Below are positions 1 to 48,212 of a DNA stretch of 64,000 bases, one piece after another. The position numbers and the translations under genes are program-made. Numbering within the stretch: position 1 is the stretch's first letter; every line of letters starts with the position of its first letter. The DNA is taken from assembly GCF_057098645.1 (NCBI RefSeq), contig NZ_CM169472.1; one strand, 5' to 3'. Under the pieces are notes generated by a model that did not search any database, was not told the origin of the DNA, and saw only the letters and a list, made by a program, of their open reading frames with translations.

Positions 1-883
1 CGTTGGAGGTGGTCATGTCGATGCCTTCAGCATTACCCAGGGCTTCAGTCAGGGTCATGCCGCTAAAGTCCATTTTCAGGGTGCTCTGTTTCTTCACTTC
101 ACCCATCACAAATACTTTCAGATCATCATTACGCGGCACGTAGAGAATATCGCCGGGATAAAGCAGTCGGTTCTGATTGAGGTCGCCGTTTTGCATCAGC
201 GCCTGCAAAGAAATGCGTTCTTCACGACCATTGTGTGTTAGCACCACGTTGCGCCAGTCAGCGGTGTCGGTCAGGCCACCTGCGGCGTTGATGGCGTCGA
301 GAATAGTCAGTGGTACGTTGGTGATCGCCTGTTGACCGGATTTATTCACCTGACCTGAGATATAGGCCTTTTGTGAGCGGAAGGCGGCGATATTAACGTC
401 CACCTGCGGGTCAGCGATGTACGTCGCTAAGCGCCCGGTAATATCACTGCGGATTTCAGCGAGCGTTTTCCCGACTACGTGAACCTTGCCGATATACGGG
501 TAGAACATGGTGCCGTCAGGCTGTACCCAGTTGCCGGTGTCACTGGAGCTGCGGTACTGACCGGCTGGCGTGGTGAGTTCCGGGTGATCCCAGACGGTGA
601 CATTAAGAACGTCCCCCGGCCCGACGCGATACTGGTAATTCGCGATCTCGCTTTCCAGCGTCATATTGGGGCGCGCTACGTTGGGTCGTGGACGTAATTG
701 GTCAATCAGGCGCGGGGTCAACGGATAAACATTCACCATTTTGTCGAGATCGAAATCAGCGTCCTGCTGTTTGATGACGTCTTTGCCCATCGTCGACATA
801 TTGCTGCCCGGAAGTACTGTGCAACCGCTTATCAAGGTTACTGACACCAATAATGGCATCAATTTCATTTTGGATTTCATCAT
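1..883 (-). CDS. wza: Outer-membrane polysaccharide export lipoprotein Wza, N-terminal part (gene runs off the window start)
   Basis: Minus-strand translation from ATG at 881-883 gives [17 protein letters not shown](I)SGCT... with a lipobox Cys, matching Wza; the reading frame continues to position 1. Confidence 0.85.
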
Positions 884-1061
884 TGTTTATTTATCACTTT
901 GGCAGAGTAATTATCCTGTGCACTATTAATAGCAATGTCGCCATGCACATTTACCTTGCAGTTAATTGAATACAAATTTAACTGGCATCAGTCCTAAAAA
1001 AATTGATTTCATCCGCAGGCTATTGACAGAATAATTCAGACTGGTCTTTCAGGCATCCAGA

Positions 1062-1073
1062 CACGCTACCGCC
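1062..1073 (-). promoter_or_regulatory. ops element (GGCGGTAGCGTG) in the wza leader, RfaH recruitment site within a JUMPstart region
   Basis: Minus-strand sequence reads GGCGGTAGCGTG about 180 nt upstream of the wza start; matches the ops consensus GGCGGTAGnnTG. Confidence 0.6.
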
Positions 1074-1541
1074 CCTGGCTTTTTAGCTACCAATACACTG
1101 ATTTAGCTTAATTTTTCAAACCCTCTCTGCATACAATCGTTGATGAGAAAGGGTTATTGCGGAAATTAACTTCCGAATATAAGGTGACATTATGGTAATT
1201 GAATATTGGCTCTCCAATAATGCAGGAGGAAGTGTTACAGCTAACGGAATAGCAGGCAAGGTAACAATTCGGCAATTGGCTATTTTTAAGAATTATATTA
1301 AGTGTCATTCAATATGGTTTTTAGGAGTTTCTTTAGGTTGACAATATTTAATATTGCGTCTCCACATGCGATATTTCTTAAATAATGTTTTATTATTACC
1401 ACTTTTAATTCAGGGATAATGTGAGGTTATTACCCTCAAATAATATGAGATAAATAGTGCTGCAACATTGCATTTTTGCCCCGATTTATCCATGATCGAA
1501 TTGTGACATTTGTCATACAACGAATAGGTTTTGTACTTACT

Positions 1542-3125
1542 ATGGAATGGATTGCCGATCCGTCTATCTGGGCCGGGTTAATCACGCTGATTGTGATCGA
1601 ACTGGTCCTCGGCATTGATAACCTGGTCTTTATTGCCATCCTCGCCGAAAAACTACCGCCGAAGCAGCGCGACCGCGCACGGGTTACCGGGCTGCTGCTG
1701 GCGATGTTAATGCGCCTGTTACTGCTGGCGTCAATCTCCTGGCTGGTCACCCTGACTCAACCGCTGTTCAGCTTCCGCTCGTTTACCTTTAGCGCCCGCG
1801 ACTTAATCATGCTGTTTGGTGGTTTCTTCCTGTTGTTCAAAGCCACGATGGAGCTGAACGAACGGCTGGAAGGGAAAGACAGCAATAATCCCACACAACG
1901 CAAAGGTGCGAAGTTCTGGGGCGTGGTGACGCAAATTGTGGTACTGGACGCCATTTTCTCACTCGACTCAGTGATTACCGCCGTCGGGATGGTCGACCAT
2001 TTACTGGTCATGATGGCCGCCGTGGTTATCGCTATCAGCCTGATGTTGATGGCCAGCAAGCCGTTAACGCAATTTGTTAACAGTCACCCGACGATCGTTA
2101 TTCTCTGCTTAAGCTTCCTGTTGATGATTGGCTTTAGCCTGGTGGCAGAAGGTTTCGGCTTCGTCATTCCGAAAGGCTACCTGTACGCTGCCATTGGTTT
2201 CTCGGTGATGATCGAGGCGCTCAATCAGTTGGCTATCTTTAACCGGCGACGTTTTCTTTCCGCTAACCAGACGCTGCGCCAGCGGACTACCGAAGCGGTA
2301 ATGCGCCTGCTTAGCGGGCAAAAAGAAGATGCGGAACTGGACGCCGAAACCGCGTCCATGCTGGTGGATCATGGTAACCAGCAGATCTTTAATCCGCAGG
2401 AACGGCGGATGATTGAGCGGGTACTAAATCTTAACCAGCGTACCGTCAGCAGCATTATGACGTCGCGCCACGATATTGAGCATATCGATCTCAACGCGCC
2501 GGAAGACGAGATCCGCCAGTTGCTGGAGCGAAATCAGCATACGCGGCTGGTGGTTACCGACGGTGATGACGCAGAAGATTTGCTCGGTGTTGTTCACGTT
2601 ATCGACCTGCTACAACAGTCTCTGCGCGGCGAACCGCTCAACCTGCGGGTGTTGATTCGCCAGCCGCTGGTGTTCCCGGAAACCTTGCCGTTGTTACCTG
2701 CCCTGGAGCAGTTCCGTAATGCCCGCACGCACTTTGCTTTTGTGGTGGATGAGTTTGGCTCGGTGGAAGGGATTGTGACATTAAGTGACGTCACTGAAAC
2801 CATTGCCGGTAACTTACCGAACGAAGTGGAAGAGATCGACGCCCGCCATGATATTCAGAAGAATGCGGACGGTTCCTGGACGGCGAATGGTCATATGCCG
2901 CTGGAGGATCTGGTGCAATATGTGCCGCTGCCGCTGGATGAAAAACGTGAATATCACACCATTGCCGGGCTGTTGATGGAGTATTTGCAGCGTATTCCAA
3001 AACCTGGCGAAGAAGTTCAGGTGGGGGATTATTTGCTTAAAACGTTGCAGGTAGAAAGCCATCGCGTGCAGAAGGTGCAGATTATACCGCTGCGTAAGGA
3101 TGGCGAGATGGAGTACGAGGTGTGA
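1542..3125 (+). CDS. yegH: Inner-membrane TerC-family protein with C-terminal CBS pair and CorC/HlyC transporter-associated domain
   Basis: ORF 1476..3125; likely true start at MEWIADPS (1542). N-terminal multi-TM region with the GIDNLVF TerC-type motif, then CBS-like and CorC-like C-terminus. Confidence 0.85.
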
Positions 3126-3417: not shown

Positions 3418-5271
3418 CTACATCTTCTCAAGCAACTTCTTCACATCTTTGCCATTACGGGAATCTTTATTCCGCTCGGCCCAGTCATTCAGGCGACGTT
3501 TCGCTTCGTCCTGTAGATGTTTGCGCAGTAACTGATCCACTTGCAGGCTGTAATTGAGTTGCTGCCAGTTGCCATAAACCCGCAGCGGTACTGGCGTTTC
3601 TTTCAGGAAATCAATCAGTTTGCTTTCCCCGTTCCAGCCACCCACGACCCGAATATCAAACTGGGTGTCGCAGGTTTGATCTGCCAGATTCAACATGCCT
3701 TCCCCTGTCAGCGCCAGCACAGGCGATTGACCTTGCATGTCGTTTAACGTCACGACGCCATCCTTCAACGTCAAATCGGTGGTAAAGCGGTCAAGCCGCG
3801 TCACGTTATCAAAGTTTTCAGCGGCCTTCACATCACCGCCATTACGCTCTACCGCTTGCTGAATCATCTGCTGGAAGTTCATCCCTTCCATGCGCGTGTC
3901 GGTCATTTCGACATGTGCCTGTCCTTGCCAGTTGTGGCGGAATGCGTCGGCATCTATGTCAGCACCGGAGAAATCACCAGCCAGTGACATTTTTCCGGTC
4001 AACGAAATCGGATAGTTAAACGCCTTCAGAATGGTACCAATCTCAACGTTTTCCAGCCGTGGCTGGAAGTTTATCCGCGGATTTATTGATGTCGCGTCCA
4101 GCGTGCCCGGCAGTGAAACCTGTCCACCGTTAAGCTTGCCCTGCAGTTGAGTAATTTCCAGCAAACCCGACTTGTTGGTCATTTGCGTGGCAACATCTGT
4201 AAAATTCATTCCGCGCCAGCGCACGTTACTGACCTGCAACAAAATATCAGCCGTAAAGCCTTGCAGTCCCTGATAGGCCGGTTCATCAATACGCGAAGAA
4301 ATAACCGGGCGCGGCAACGTTGATTGGCTCTGCCCCTGCTGCGCGGCACCGTTTTCACCATTCGCTGTTTCATTAAGCGGGATGAGGTTGTCAAGATTCA
4401 GTTGCGGGAATTGCAGCCTCAGCTGCCATTCCGGTTTCTCTGTCAGCGTAACCTGTGCTTGCCCGCTCAGCGTACTGTCATTGGCGGTCAAGCTGATTTG
4501 GTTAAATGAAAGGCGTTTATGTGACTCCTGCCACTGGGCCTGGAAACTCCCCTGCCCCTGAATACCTTGTTTTGGTAAATCGGCACCCTGCAACTGCCAG
4601 TTAATTTGTTCAATAGCCGCCGTTAAATCATGCGGATAATCAGAAGCATCTACCGTACCGTTAAGGGATATCGTGAGATCGCGCTGATCGCGATTAACCC
4701 GCCCGGAAAACTCAAATGAGCCACGATGTTGGGGATCTTGTTCCATTTGCAGGCGGATATTGCGGATTGTCACCTGCTCGTCATCTTCATGCTGGAACAC
4801 CAGAACGCTGTCCGCCACCTTAAGACTGGATATATCAAACGACCATCCGCGATCGTCTGACAGATCCGGCAAGGTATTGTCGCGCGGTGCAACCGGAGCG
4901 TCTTCACTGCGCACCGCTTCCGTCTGCGGCGTCAGTTGGATCACTGCCCCTTTTAGCATCACCTGCTTAACGCTCAGTTGATGACTCAGTAGTGGTAAAA
5001 GCGCCACGTCCAGACGCATGTTGTCGGCGCGAACCAGTGGCTGGCTTGCGCCCTGGGCGGTGAGAGACATTCGCCCGGAGAGGATACTAAGCTGCGGCCA
5101 GACGTGCCAACGCAGTGGCCCGTCGAGCTGCAATTGATAACCGCTACGTGCAGCAACTTGCTTGACCATATAGTCGCGGAAATCATTCGGATTCACCAGC
5201 AACACTAACGCAGATAACCCGGCCACCAGCACGACCAGGAGTATCATCAGCGTCGTCAGAAATCGTCTCAT
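3418..5271 (-). CDS. asmA: AsmA, outer-membrane assembly protein (AsmA family)
   Basis: 617-aa ORF with N-terminal signal anchor (MRRFLTTLMILLVVLVAGLSALVLL), Gln-rich middle region, overall AsmA-like. Confidence 0.9.
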   Translation of the reverse strand: MRRFLTTLMILLVVLVAGLSALVLLVNPNDFRDYMVKQVAARSGYQLQLDGPLRWHVWPQLSILSGRMSLTAQGASQPLVRADNMRLDVALLPLLSHQLSVKQVMLKGAVIQLTPQTEAVRSEDAPVAPRDNTLPDLSDDRGWSFDISSLKVADSVLVFQHEDDEQVTIRNIRLQMEQDPQHRGSFEFSGRVNRDQRDLTISLNGTVDASDYPHDLTAAIEQINWQLQGADLPKQGIQGQGSFQAQWQESHKRLSFNQISLTANDSTLSGQAQVTLTEKPEWQLRLQFPQLNLDNLIPLNETANGENGAAQQGQSQSTLPRPVISSRIDEPAYQGLQGFTADILLQVSNVRWRGMNFTDVATQMTNKSGLLEITQLQGKLNGGQVSLPGTLDATSINPRINFQPRLENVEIGTILKAFNYPISLTGKMSLAGDFSGADIDADAFRHNWQGQAHVEMTDTRMEGMNFQQMIQQAVERNGGDVKAAENFDNVTRLDRFTTDLTLKDGVVTLNDMQGQSPVLALTGEGMLNLADQTCDTQFDIRVVGGWNGESKLIDFLKETPVPLRVYGNWQQLNYSLQVDQLLRKHLQDEAKRRLNDWAERNKDSRNGKDVKKLLEKM

Positions 5272-16044: not shown

Positions 16045-16227
16045 AAGAAATCCTTTCTTAGAGAATTATTGAGGTCCGGTATCATACCGATTGCAATAAT
16101 GAAATAAGAGCAAACGAAGAAACTTTCAGAATTAGGCCCGGCGGCGCAGAAAATTTTGCTATTCGCCTCGCAAGAACGGAGAGCCGTCGATTGACACTAA
16201 GGGCGGAGTGACATAATTACAGGAGTG

Positions 16228-16375
16228 AGGGTTAGGGAGAAGTTTCCCCCTCCCCCTGGTGTTCTTAGTAAGCCTGGAAGCTAATCACTAAGAGTATCAC
16301 CAGTATGATGACGTGCTTCATCATAACCCTTTCCTTATTTAAAAGCCCTCTTCTCCGGGAGAGGGTTCCCCGTTT
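16228..16375 (+). ncRNA. sibA: Sib antitoxin sRNA, copy 1 (boundaries approximate)
   Basis: Starts just downstream of TTGACA...TAATTA; fully antisense to ibs ORF 1; ends at hairpin ccctcttctccgggagaggg plus T-run. Confidence 0.55.
16265..16324 (-). CDS. ibsA: Ibs-type hydrophobic toxin peptide, copy 1 (MMKHVIILVILLVISFQAY)
   Basis: 19-codon ORF with tandem ATG start and strongly hydrophobic sequence typical of Ibs toxins. Confidence 0.6.
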   Translation of the reverse strand: MMKHVIILVILLVISFQAY

Positions 16376-16556
16376 TAGCGTCCCGCTGAAATCGTCGGCT
16401 TACCTCCTTTCGCCCTGAATGCAGTCTATCGCTGACTTGCGGATAAAATAGTTTCAAGTGTGATTATTGCGTAACGACTCGCAAAGAATATTTGCTGGCA
16501 GGATCGCAGACTGCAAAGCCTGCAGATTGACAATCTTATCGTGAAGGCATACTTTC

Positions 16557-16703
16557 AGGAGTGAGGGTAGAGCGGGGTTTCCCCCGCCCTGGTAGTCTTA
16601 GTAAGCGGGGAAGCTTATGACTAAGAGCACCACGATGATGAGTAGCTTCATCATGACCCTTTCCTTATTTAAGGCCCCTTCCTCGGGAGGGGCTTTCCCG
16701 TTT
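16557..16703 (+). ncRNA. sibB: Sib antitoxin sRNA, copy 2 (boundaries approximate)
   Basis: Promoter TTGACA-N17-TACTTT; antisense to ibs ORF 2; terminator hairpin plus T-run. Confidence 0.55.
16598..16654 (-). CDS. ibsB: Ibs-type toxin peptide, copy 2 (MMKLLIIVVLLVISFPAY)
   Basis: 18-codon hydrophobic ORF antisense to Sib copy 2. Confidence 0.6.
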   Translation of the reverse strand: MMKLLIIVVLLVISFPAY

Positions 16704-16884
16704 CAGCGTCCCGCTGAAATCTTCGGCTTACCTCCTTTCGCCCTGTATGCAGTCTATCGCTGACTTGCGGATAAAATAGTTTCAAGTGTGATTATTGCGT
16801 AACGACTCGCAAAGAATATTTGCTGGCAGGATCGCAGACTGCAAAGCCTGCAGATTGACAATCTTATCGTGAAGGCATACTTTC

Positions 16885-17031
16885 AGGAGTGAGGGTAGAG
16901 CGGGGTTTCCCCCGCCCTGGTAGTCTTAGTATGCTGGGTAGCTAATCACTAAGAGCACCACGATGATGAGTATCTTCATCATGACCCTTTCCTTATTTAT
17001 GGCCCCTTCCTCGGGAGGGGCTTTCCCGTTT
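16885..17031 (+). ncRNA. Sib antitoxin sRNA, copy 3 (boundaries approximate)
   Basis: Third repeat of the promoter/sRNA/terminator block. Confidence 0.5.
16926..16982 (-). CDS. Ibs-type toxin peptide, copy 3 (MMKILIIVVLLVISYPAY)
   Basis: 18-codon hydrophobic ORF in the third repeat; two residue differences from copy 2. Confidence 0.55.
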   Translation of the reverse strand: MMKILIIVVLLVISYPAY

Positions 17032-30274: not shown

Positions 30275-30358
30275 TTAATTTCGATTATTTTTCCCGGATG
30301 GAAAATTCTTAGAAACCGATCACATACAGCTGCATTTATTAAGGTTATCATCCGTTTC

Positions 30359-30445
30359 GCTGAAAAACATAACCCATAAAATGCTAGCTGTACCAGGAAC
30401 CACCTCCTTAGCCTGTGTAATCTCCCTTACACGGGCTTATTTTTT
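30359..30445 (+). ncRNA. cyaR: CyaR (RyeE) Hfq-dependent sRNA
   Basis: gctgaaaaacataacccataaaatgctagctgtaccaggaaccacctccttagcctgtgtaatctcccttacacgggcttattttttt: CCUCCU anti-SD seed, then terminator hairpin gcctgtgtaa/ttacacgggc plus U-tract; CRP half-site-like TCACA upstream. Confidence 0.75.
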
Positions 30446-47994: not shown

Positions 47995-48118
47995 TGCTCC
48001 TGCCATAACGTGAAGAAGCAATGACCTGGTGGTCCGTGACTTCCCTACGCTGGCATTATCCAGATCAGGTGATACGGGTATTTCTCAGCCTTCACGCAGA
48101 AGGGCACCCCGAGTCGTT
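47995..48118 (-). promoter_or_regulatory. TPP (THI-box) riboswitch in the thiM 5' leader
   Basis: Minus-strand leader reads ...ggggtgcccttctgcgtgaaggctgagaaatacccgtatcacctgatctggataatgccagcgtagggaa..., the conserved THI-element core (CUGAGA, ACCUGAUCUGGAUAAUGCCAGCG). Confidence 0.8.
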
Positions 48119-48212
48119 TGGTTGCGATGATAAATCGCAGAGGAGGATGGTAATGTCCAGCGCACGCGTTGTAAACGAGGAAAAACGGCAGTTTTACAAT
48201 CGCGTTAATAAA

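What the first reader, a model, noticed from the sequence alone, without database searches (positions are those of the whole stretch)
1062..1073. ops (operon polarity suppressor) element in the wza leader
GGCGGTAGCGTG on the minus strand upstream of wza implies RfaH-dependent antitermination of the downstream capsule (colanic acid-type) operon, whose first gene is cut by the window edge. The AT-rich 900-1500 region presumably carries the Rcs-dependent promoter.
Basis: partly seen in the sequence, partly recalled or inferred. Interest (0 to 1): 0.25.

Follow-up and report, generated by a model that had tools for sequence, protein, structure and literature searches.

The report
Known RfaH loading site before wza
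The 12-base motif is real: it is the well-known JUMPstart/ops signal in the untranslated leader of the E. coli colanic-acid (wza-wcaM) operon, where the anti-termination factor RfaH boards RNA polymerase, so this is correct but ordinary textbook biology.

Summary
GGCGGTAGCGTG lies on the minus strand at 1073..1062, 190 nt upstream of the wza ATG (883). It is the only match to the ops consensus in 64 kb (0.09 expected). It forms the 3' end of a full 39-nt JUMPstart element (1100..1062; Rfam RF01707, 57.3 bits against a cut-off of 35).

The window is E. coli chromosome, closest to O145 strains: wza, then yegH, asmA and onward.

Among wza loci from 80 species of Enterobacteriaceae, 72 carry an exact ops on the coding strand, mostly 188-191 nt before the ATG. 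Four more carry one substitution. The fixed positions match the known consensus.

A conserved promoter-like block lies upstream of ops in 69 of 77 sequences: TTGCCT, 17 nt, TGnAACA(A/C)T, at window 1259..1231. RcsAB-box-like sites lie further upstream in a region of 31-41% GC.

Published work already covers this element. JUMPstart at cps is credited to Stout 1996 and Hobbs & Reeves 1994. Hustmyer et al. 2022 list the identical ops, 190 nt before wza, with RfaH ChIP signal in CFT073 Δhns ΔstpA.

The transcription start is inferred, not mapped.

The parts
1062..1073 (-). ops element GGCGGTAGCGTG. This is the RfaH recruitment and pause site, read in the non-template DNA strand.
   Evidence: It is the only consensus match in the window. 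Positions 1-9 and T11 are invariant or nearly so across 77 enterobacterial wza leaders, position 10 varies, and G12 becomes A in 3. The identical site in CFT073 gives RfaH ChIP signal.
1062..1100 (-). The complete 39-nt JUMPstart element. Its 5' half contains a potential 5-bp hairpin (1093-1089 pairing with 1079-1075); its 3' end is ops.
   Evidence: Rfam RF01707 scores 57.3 bits against a gathering score of 35, covering model positions 1-38 of 38. The 5' half (CAGTG..TTGGTA.CT..AAGCCA) is as conserved as ops. The hairpin pairs show only one-sided changes.
1231..1259 (-). Inferred core promoter of the operon: -35 TTGCCT (1259-1254), a 17-nt spacer ending in TGT (an extended -10 TGn), and -10 AACACT (1236-1231). 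The predicted start is near 1224, about 150 nt upstream of ops, giving a leader of about 340 nt.
   Evidence: TTGCC[TA]-N17-AACA[AC]T, preceded by GCTG, is present with fixed spacing in 69 of 77 leaders, always 65-180 nt upstream of ops. This rests on inference from conservation; there is no transcript mapping.
1367..1380 (-). Candidate RcsAB box, TAAGAAATATCGCA.
   Evidence: It has one mismatch to the RcsB box TN(G/A)GAN4TC(T/C)NA of PMC7913699. By my own reading it matches all six upper-case positions of TaAGaatatTCctA. It is moderately conserved, and L028 has GAGGATATTCCTA in the same place. The assignment is inferred.
1283..1343 (-). Two very strongly conserved upstream blocks: TGTCAAC..AAGAAACTCCTAAAA (1343-1318) and TAATATAATTCTTAAAAAT (1302-1283). 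They are probably activator sites; the second contains the RcsB-box-like TAAGAATTATATTA on the + strand at 1287-1300.
   Evidence: The conservation profile and alignment of 77 leaders support this, as does the box scan. The function is not assigned.
884..1061 (-). Leader between ops and the wza start codon. It contains conserved sequence blocks (about 1034-1018, 1001-972 and 935-884) and has no Shine-Dalgarno sequence.
   Evidence: Conservation is shown. RNAalifold finds no covariation-supported structure (-9.7 kcal/mol). wza has the weakest anti-SD pairing of 27 genes tested (-1.6 kcal/mol).
1..883 (-). The 5' part (294 codons) of wza, first gene of the colanic-acid operon, cut by the window edge.
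   Evidence: ORF and annotation transfer from genomes that are 100% identical over this region.

Best explanation
This is the JUMPstart/ops element of the colanic-acid (wza-wcaM) operon leader of E. coli.

Transcription starts at an Rcs-activated promoter in the AT-rich, H-NS-bound region upstream. The start is inferred to be near 1224. About 150 nt later RNA polymerase transcribes ops and pauses there. The exposed non-template strand GGCGGTAGCGTG is recognised by RfaH, which replaces NusG on the elongation complex.

RfaH then suppresses pausing, Rho-dependent termination and H-NS/StpA roadblocks across the 20-gene, roughly 23-kb operon. It probably also couples the ribosome to the mRNA, because wza has no Shine-Dalgarno sequence.

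What is shown here: the sequence, strand, position, family membership and deep conservation. What comes from the literature: RfaH occupancy at the identical site in CFT073. What is inferred: the exact start site, the RcsAB box assignment and the ribosome-recruitment step.
For: The motif is exact and unique in the window. The full JUMPstart matches Rfam above its gathering score. It is in the sense strand, 190 nt before the wza ATG.

Of 80 wza loci from different species, 72 have an exact ops and 4 more have one substitution, mostly 188-191 nt from the ATG (range 185-204 where the ATG was located). The per-position conservation mirrors the GGCGGTAGnnTG consensus.

The same 39-nt architecture sits upstream of the O-antigen clusters of K-12 and O145. 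A conserved promoter-like block lies upstream of ops in 69 of 77 sequences.

A 22.8-kb, 20-gene operon follows. A strong REP-like hairpin lies in the wzc-wcaA gap (-66 kcal/mol, z = -5). wza has the weakest SD of 27 genes.

Literature: RfaH ChIP signal at the identical wza ops in CFT073 Δhns ΔstpA (PMC9765446); JUMPstart-RfaH control of the wca operon (PMC9976346); RfaH stated to be required downstream of wzc (PMC3673037).
Against: No transcript 5'-end data were available to me, so the placement of the start site upstream of ops rests on conservation and on the published ChIP result.

The only hit of the generic sigma-70 scan (1216..1189) is not conserved, so that scan neither supports nor contradicts the promoter inferred from conservation.

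The intrinsic-terminator scan of the operon is not above chance (24 found against 21.9 expected). Hence the polarity that RfaH relieves is probably Rho- or H-NS-mediated rather than due to classical terminators.

In wild-type CFT073 in rich medium the locus is silent and shows no RfaH signal. In K-12, RfaH was reported at only two operons. RfaH dependence in this particular strain is untested.
Confidence: 0.9

Rival explanations
1. The element acts mainly as RNA. In this view the JUMPstart transcript folds into a hairpin that is bound by a factor or stabilises the pause, and the DNA-level ops/RfaH mechanism is secondary.
For: Rfam models JUMPstart as a cis-regulatory RNA with a 5-bp stem, and the window fits it. 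The 5' half, which ops itself does not include, is as conserved as ops. The base of the stem (1075) lies 12 nt upstream of ops T11 (1063).
Against: The stem is weak, with two G-U pairs out of five. The 71-nt region does not fold better than shuffles (z = -0.85). Across 77 leaders only one-sided changes occur and there is no compensatory pair. Published ChIP shows RfaH at this site.
Confidence: 0.07
2. The site is a conserved but functionally idle ops copy, so colanic-acid expression depends only on RcsAB-driven initiation and not on RfaH.
For: The operon is silent in standard conditions. RfaH ChIP in K-12 is reported at only two operons. Of 42 ops-like sites in CFT073, 34 do not bind RfaH.
Against: Those 34 silent sites are all inside coding regions, whereas all 8 leader sites, including wza, bind RfaH. 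The near-invariance of the motif, and its fixed distance from wza across many genera, argues for selection.
Confidence: 0.03
3. The 12-mer is a chance occurrence.
For: 8 of 100 shuffles of the window contain at least one match to the 12-mer consensus.
Against: The full 39-nt JUMPstart matches at E about 1e-11. The motif is conserved at the same place in 76 of the 79 loci that have upstream DNA.
Confidence: 0

Closest known systems
JUMPstart/ops element of the E. coli K-12 and CFT073 colanic-acid (cps/wca) leader (credited to Stout 1996 and Hobbs & Reeves 1994; Hustmyer et al. 2022)
   Same: It is the same locus. The K-12 sequence around the element is identical over the roughly 60 nt compared. 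The 12-mer and the -190 distance to wza are identical to CFT073.
   Different: Nothing of substance differs. The strain background here is O145-like, and the intergenic region is 100% identical to O145 and other strains.
JUMPstart/ops upstream of O-antigen (rfb) clusters, between galF and the first O-antigen gene
   Same: It has the same 39-nt architecture and the same ops 12-mer: K-12 CAGTGCTCTGGTAGCTGTAAAGCCAGGGGCGGTAGCGTG against window CAGTGTATTGGTAGCTAAAAAGCCAGGGGCGGTAGCGTG. The O145 copy was also found.
   Different: The distance to the first gene differs: about 75-90 nt for rfb against 190 nt here. Hustmyer et al. found the CFT073 O-antigen (wzx) locus transcribed and RfaH-bound in wild type, whereas wza was silent. 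The loop of the 5' hairpin is 1 nt longer here.
Other ops sites: hlyCABD, kps region 3, rfaQ (waa), F tra
   Same: They share the GGCGGTAGnnTG core in a non-template leader and RfaH recruitment.
   Different: In the CFT073 list, hly and kps carry variant positions 10-12 (GGCGGTAGCATG, GGCGGTAGCATA) and lie at different distances from the first gene.

Membership tests
ops / JUMPstart (RfaH-dependent operon leader) | 12-nt ops consensus GGCGGTAGnnTG | tested here: met
   There is an exact match at 1073..1062 and it is unique in the window.
ops / JUMPstart (RfaH-dependent operon leader) | Full 39-nt JUMPstart sequence and structure (Rfam RF01707) above the curated threshold | tested here: met
   57.3 bits against a gathering score of 35, covering all model positions, E 7.6e-12.
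ops / JUMPstart (RfaH-dependent operon leader) | The motif lies in the non-template (sense) strand relative to the downstream operon | tested here: met
   The motif and wza are both on the minus strand.
ops / JUMPstart (RfaH-dependent operon leader) | Located in the transcribed, untranslated leader, that is, downstream of the transcription start and upstream of the first gene | tested here: inconclusive
   It is upstream of the first gene by 190 nt. A conserved promoter-like block sits 157 nt upstream of ops in the window and 65-180 nt upstream in 69 of 77 leaders. No 5'-end data were available. Indirect support comes from the published sigma-70 peak upstream of wza and the RfaH signal at this ops in CFT073.
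ops / JUMPstart (RfaH-dependent operon leader) | Precedes a long operon for a surface or secreted structure | tested here: met
   wza-wcaM comprises 20 genes over 22.8 kb in O145 RM9872, whose wza-yegH region is 100% identical to the window. Only the first 883 nt lie in the window.
ops / JUMPstart (RfaH-dependent operon leader) | RfaH binds the elongation complex at the site and distal gene expression depends on rfaH | not testable with these tools
   Literature only: RfaH ChIP signal at the identical site in CFT073 Δhns ΔstpA, absent in ΔrfaH. The title of Navasa et al. 2014 (reference list) points to RfaH control of colanic acid in K92, but the text is not held.
Rcs-activated cps promoter (RcsAB box) | A 14-bp RcsAB box, TaAGaatatTCctA or TN(G/A)GAN4TC(T/C)NA, upstream of the core promoter | tested here: inconclusive
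   Two candidates have one mismatch to the RcsB box, at 1367-1380 and 1287-1300; a third looser match (four mismatches to the 14-mer consensus) is at 1322-1335. All lie in conserved blocks. Which of them is the footprinted site could not be checked, because Wehland & Bernhard 2000 is not held.

The most novel reading that the evidence does not exclude
The parts of this leader that RfaH recognition does not obviously need may carry a second, undescribed regulatory function. These are the invariant 5' half of JUMPstart, whose hairpin base lies 12 nt upstream of ops T11, and the strongly conserved blocks between ops and the Shine-Dalgarno-less wza start. Those blocks include the invariant TAGGA..TGATGCCAGTTA and CACAGGATAATTACTCTGCCAAAGTGATAAATAA. 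Possible roles are a pause-tuning or anti-backtracking hairpin, or a protein or sRNA site that controls translation initiation of wza.
Probability: 0.15. Interest if true: 0.35.

Novelty: already known. Interest (0 to 1): 0.07.

Why it matters
The result matters little beyond correct annotation. The element explains how a 23-kb operon that is silenced by H-NS and activated by Rcs is transcribed to its end once switched on. It is not annotated in any of the RefSeq E. coli records that were listed, so flagging it is useful for annotation. The biology, however, has been described since the 1990s, and RfaH occupancy at this exact site was shown in 2022.

Tried and rejected
- **Generic promoter scan.** The sigma-70 scan gave one minus-strand hit, TGGAGA-16-CATAAT at 1216..1189. 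I rejected it as the operon promoter because those bases are poorly conserved across genera, whereas the block at 1259..1231 is nearly invariant.
- **RNA structure in the leader.** RNAalifold on 41 leaders gave -9.7 kcal/mol with a covariation term of -0.19, and only the small JUMPstart-region stems plus one 4-bp stem. A single-sequence fold of the JUMPstart region was no better than shuffles.
- **Other RNA families.** An Rfam E-value search of 1-3000 found nothing besides JUMPstart.
- **Terminators.** The intrinsic-terminator scan of the operon was not above chance.
- **ops DNA fold.** The ops DNA 12-mer fold gave a trivial energy of -0.9 kcal/mol and is not informative.
- **Primary papers.** Stout 1996, Wehland & Bernhard 2000 and Navasa 2014 are not held.
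- **Mapped start sites.** The Cappable-seq TSS table is truncated to about its first eighth in the stored copy, which should fall short of this locus. Hustmyer Data set S2 gives NA for the wza TSS. Text searches for a mapped wza start or for the RcsAB box position found nothing usable.

Full report
**Observation.** Read as reverse complement, the window shows ...CAGTGTATTGGTAGCTAAAAAGCCAGGGGCGGTAGCGTGtctgg..., with GGCGGTAGCGTG occupying 1073..1062 on the minus strand. It is the only match to GGCGGTAGNNTG on either strand of the 64-kb window. Shuffles give 0.09 matches on average, and 8 of 100 shuffles give at least one. The 12-mer alone is therefore only mildly improbable. It is, however, the 3' end of a complete 39-nt JUMPstart element at 1100..1062, which matches Rfam RF01707 end to end at 57.3 bits (gathering score 35, E 7.6e-12).

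**Context.** The window is E. coli chromosome. The wza-yegH intergenic region is 100% identical to several strains, including O145, and the first 25 kb is 99.9% identical to O145 strains. Annotation transfer gives four features:
- wza on the minus strand, with its ATG at 883, running off the window at base 1
- a 658-nt intergenic region at 884-1541
- yegH on the plus strand, starting at 1542
- asmA on the minus strand at 3418-5271

ops is therefore in the sense (non-template) strand, 190 nt upstream of wza. GC content is 31-41% over roughly 800-1500, against 50-59% in the flanking genes. In O145 RM9872 the genes that follow are wza-wzb-wzc-wcaA...wcaM, 20 genes over 22.8 kb. Then come galF and the O145 O-antigen cluster, which has its own JUMPstart/ops. 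K-12 shows the same pair of elements, and its wza JUMPstart is identical to the window's.

**Conservation.** I fetched 80 wza loci, one per species, from GTDB genomes. They include Escherichia, Citrobacter, Salmonella, Enterobacter, Lelliottia, Kosakonia, Phytobacter, Franconibacter, Trabulsiella, Atlantibacter, Buttiauxella and others.
- 72 loci have an exact GGCGGTAGNNTG on the coding strand.
- 4 more have one substitution: G12 to A in three, G2 to A in one.
- One locus has no upstream DNA, and two have an unrelated upstream region.
- The distance from ops G1 to the ATG is 188-191 nt in most loci, with a range of 185-204.

Column by column, ops positions 1-9 and 11 are invariant or nearly so, position 10 varies (G, A or C) and position 12 is occasionally A. 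This is the pattern expected from the published consensus. The 5' half of JUMPstart (CAGTG..TTGGTA.CT..AAGCCA) is just as conserved. Its 5-bp stem shows only one-sided changes, U-G to U-A.

**Promoter side.** The alignment of 77 upstream regions shows four conserved blocks, all upstream of ops:
- 1380-1367, TAAGAAATATCGCA. It has one mismatch to the RcsB box TN(G/A)GAN4TC(T/C)NA quoted in PMC7913699.
- 1343-1318, TGTCAAC..AAGAAACTCCTAAAA.
- 1302-1283, TAATATAATTCTTAAAAAT. It contains a second box-like 14-mer.
- 1264-1230, CCTTGCCTG-N9-TAGCTGTAACACT.

The last block reads as a -35 TTGCCT, a 17-nt spacer ending in TGn, and a -10 AACACT (AACAAT in most genera). This exact arrangement is present in 69 of 77 sequences, always 65-180 nt upstream of ops. 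I infer a start near 1224, about 150 nt before ops, and a leader of about 340 nt. This is inference from conservation. The generic promoter scan instead picked 1216..1189, which is not conserved. No mapped 5' end could be retrieved.

**Downstream of ops.** The leader has strongly conserved sequence blocks but no covariation-supported RNA structure. wza has the weakest anti-Shine-Dalgarno pairing of 27 genes tested in the window, -1.6 kcal/mol against a range of -2.2 to -12 for the others. From established knowledge, RfaH-controlled genes often lack an SD and rely on RfaH-S10 contacts for ribosome recruitment (Burmann et al. 2012, recalled and not checked here). A simple intrinsic-terminator scan of the operon is at chance level, 24 found against 21.9 expected. 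The wzc-wcaA gap carries a very stable REP-like hairpin (-66 kcal/mol, z = -5). This fits the statement in PMC3673037 that RfaH is required for transcription downstream of wzc.

**Literature.**
- PMC9976346 states that wca transcription uses a JUMPstart-RfaH antitermination mechanism and cites Stout 1996 and Hobbs & Reeves 1994.
- Hustmyer et al. 2022 (PMC9765446) mapped RfaH by ChIP-seq in CFT073. wza-wcaM is one of eight ops-bearing leaders that bind RfaH, and the signal is seen in Δhns ΔstpA. In wild type the promoter is silenced by H-NS and RNAP signal is below background. A sigma-70 peak appears upstream of wza in the double mutant.
- Their Data set S2 lists GGCGGTAGCGTG, on the non-template strand, in the UTR, -190 from wza, with RfaH signal marked Y. 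That is the same sequence and the same distance as in this window.
- The same paper notes that in K-12 RfaH was found at only two operons. This is consistent with cps being off under laboratory conditions.

**Mechanism.** I commit to the following sequence of events, at about 0.9 confidence.
1. RcsAB-activated initiation in the AT-rich, H-NS-bound region.
2. Transcription of JUMPstart.
3. A pause at ops.
4. RfaH binding to the exposed non-template ops DNA and exclusion of NusG.
5. Processive elongation, resistant to Rho and H-NS, through 23 kb, plus probable help with translation of the SD-less wza.

Of these, the sequence, strand, position and conservation are shown here. RfaH occupancy comes from the literature. 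The start site, the box assignment and the translation step are inferred.

**Rivals.**
- A mainly RNA-level role for the JUMPstart hairpin is not excluded for the 5' half. The fold energy and covariation do not support it.
- An idle ops is unlikely, given the near-invariance of the motif and the ChIP data.
- Chance is excluded.

**Novelty.** The finding is already known. The only added value is annotation, since the RefSeq records listed carry no feature over the element, together with the comparative picture of the promoter and leader.

Noticed in passing
window 16191-16997: There are three tandem Sib antitoxin RNAs on the + strand (16191-16339, 16527-16669, 16855-16997; Rfam RF00113, 141-145 bits). 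Each lies opposite a small Ibs toxin ORF annotated in the closest genome. From memory, K-12 has two copies (sibA, sibB) at this locus.
   Followed up: partly
window about 36546-37876: A roughly 1331-nt insertion, offset by 1336 nt, is present relative to O145 RM8988-C1 and lies inside gatZ. It encodes two overlapping minus-strand ORFs (136 aa and 301 aa) with about 33-nt terminal inverted repeats (36554-36586 and 37835-37867). From memory it looks like IS2 with a 5-bp target duplication. In the reference genome the neighbouring gatD is already a pseudogene, so the galactitol operon appears to be decaying.
   Followed up: partly
window 1192-1341 (+): RefSeq (PGAP) annotates a 49-aa 'hypothetical protein' (WP_162829205.1) inside the wza promoter region, on the opposite strand. 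It overlaps the conserved promoter and activator blocks and is probably a spurious call. K-12 has no such annotation.
   Followed up: partly
window 884-1061 (-): The leader between ops and wza contains nearly invariant blocks across genera: TTATTCTGTCAATAGCC, TTTTTAGGA.TGATGCCAGTTA, and about 50 nt just before the ATG. No RNA structure is supported, and there is no Shine-Dalgarno sequence. Their function is unknown.
   Followed up: partly
window 30357-30442 (+); 48025-48121 (-); 40100-40170 (-): Three ordinary Rfam hits: the CyaR sRNA between yegQ and yegR, the TPP riboswitch upstream of thiM, and a naRNA4 (REP-derived) hit between gatY and fbaB.
   Followed up: no
L085 30907-31083 (O145 RM9872, outside the window): The wzc-wcaA intergenic gap is 177 nt, against 92 nt in K-12. 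It folds into a very stable REP-like hairpin (-66 kcal/mol, z = -5) and is a plausible polarity barrier inside the operon.
   Followed up: partly
L074, L075 (Enterobacteriaceae UBA7338; Escherichia sp. ESNIH1): These two wza loci have no JUMPstart/ops within 1.5 kb upstream, and their upstream sequence is unrelated to the others.
   Followed up: no
L073 (CACSKA010000001.1): An assembly labelled 'Chryseobacterium sp. 18061' carries an enterobacterial wza (87% amino-acid identity) with a typical JUMPstart leader on an 800-kb contig. The record is probably mislabelled or contaminated.
   Followed up: no
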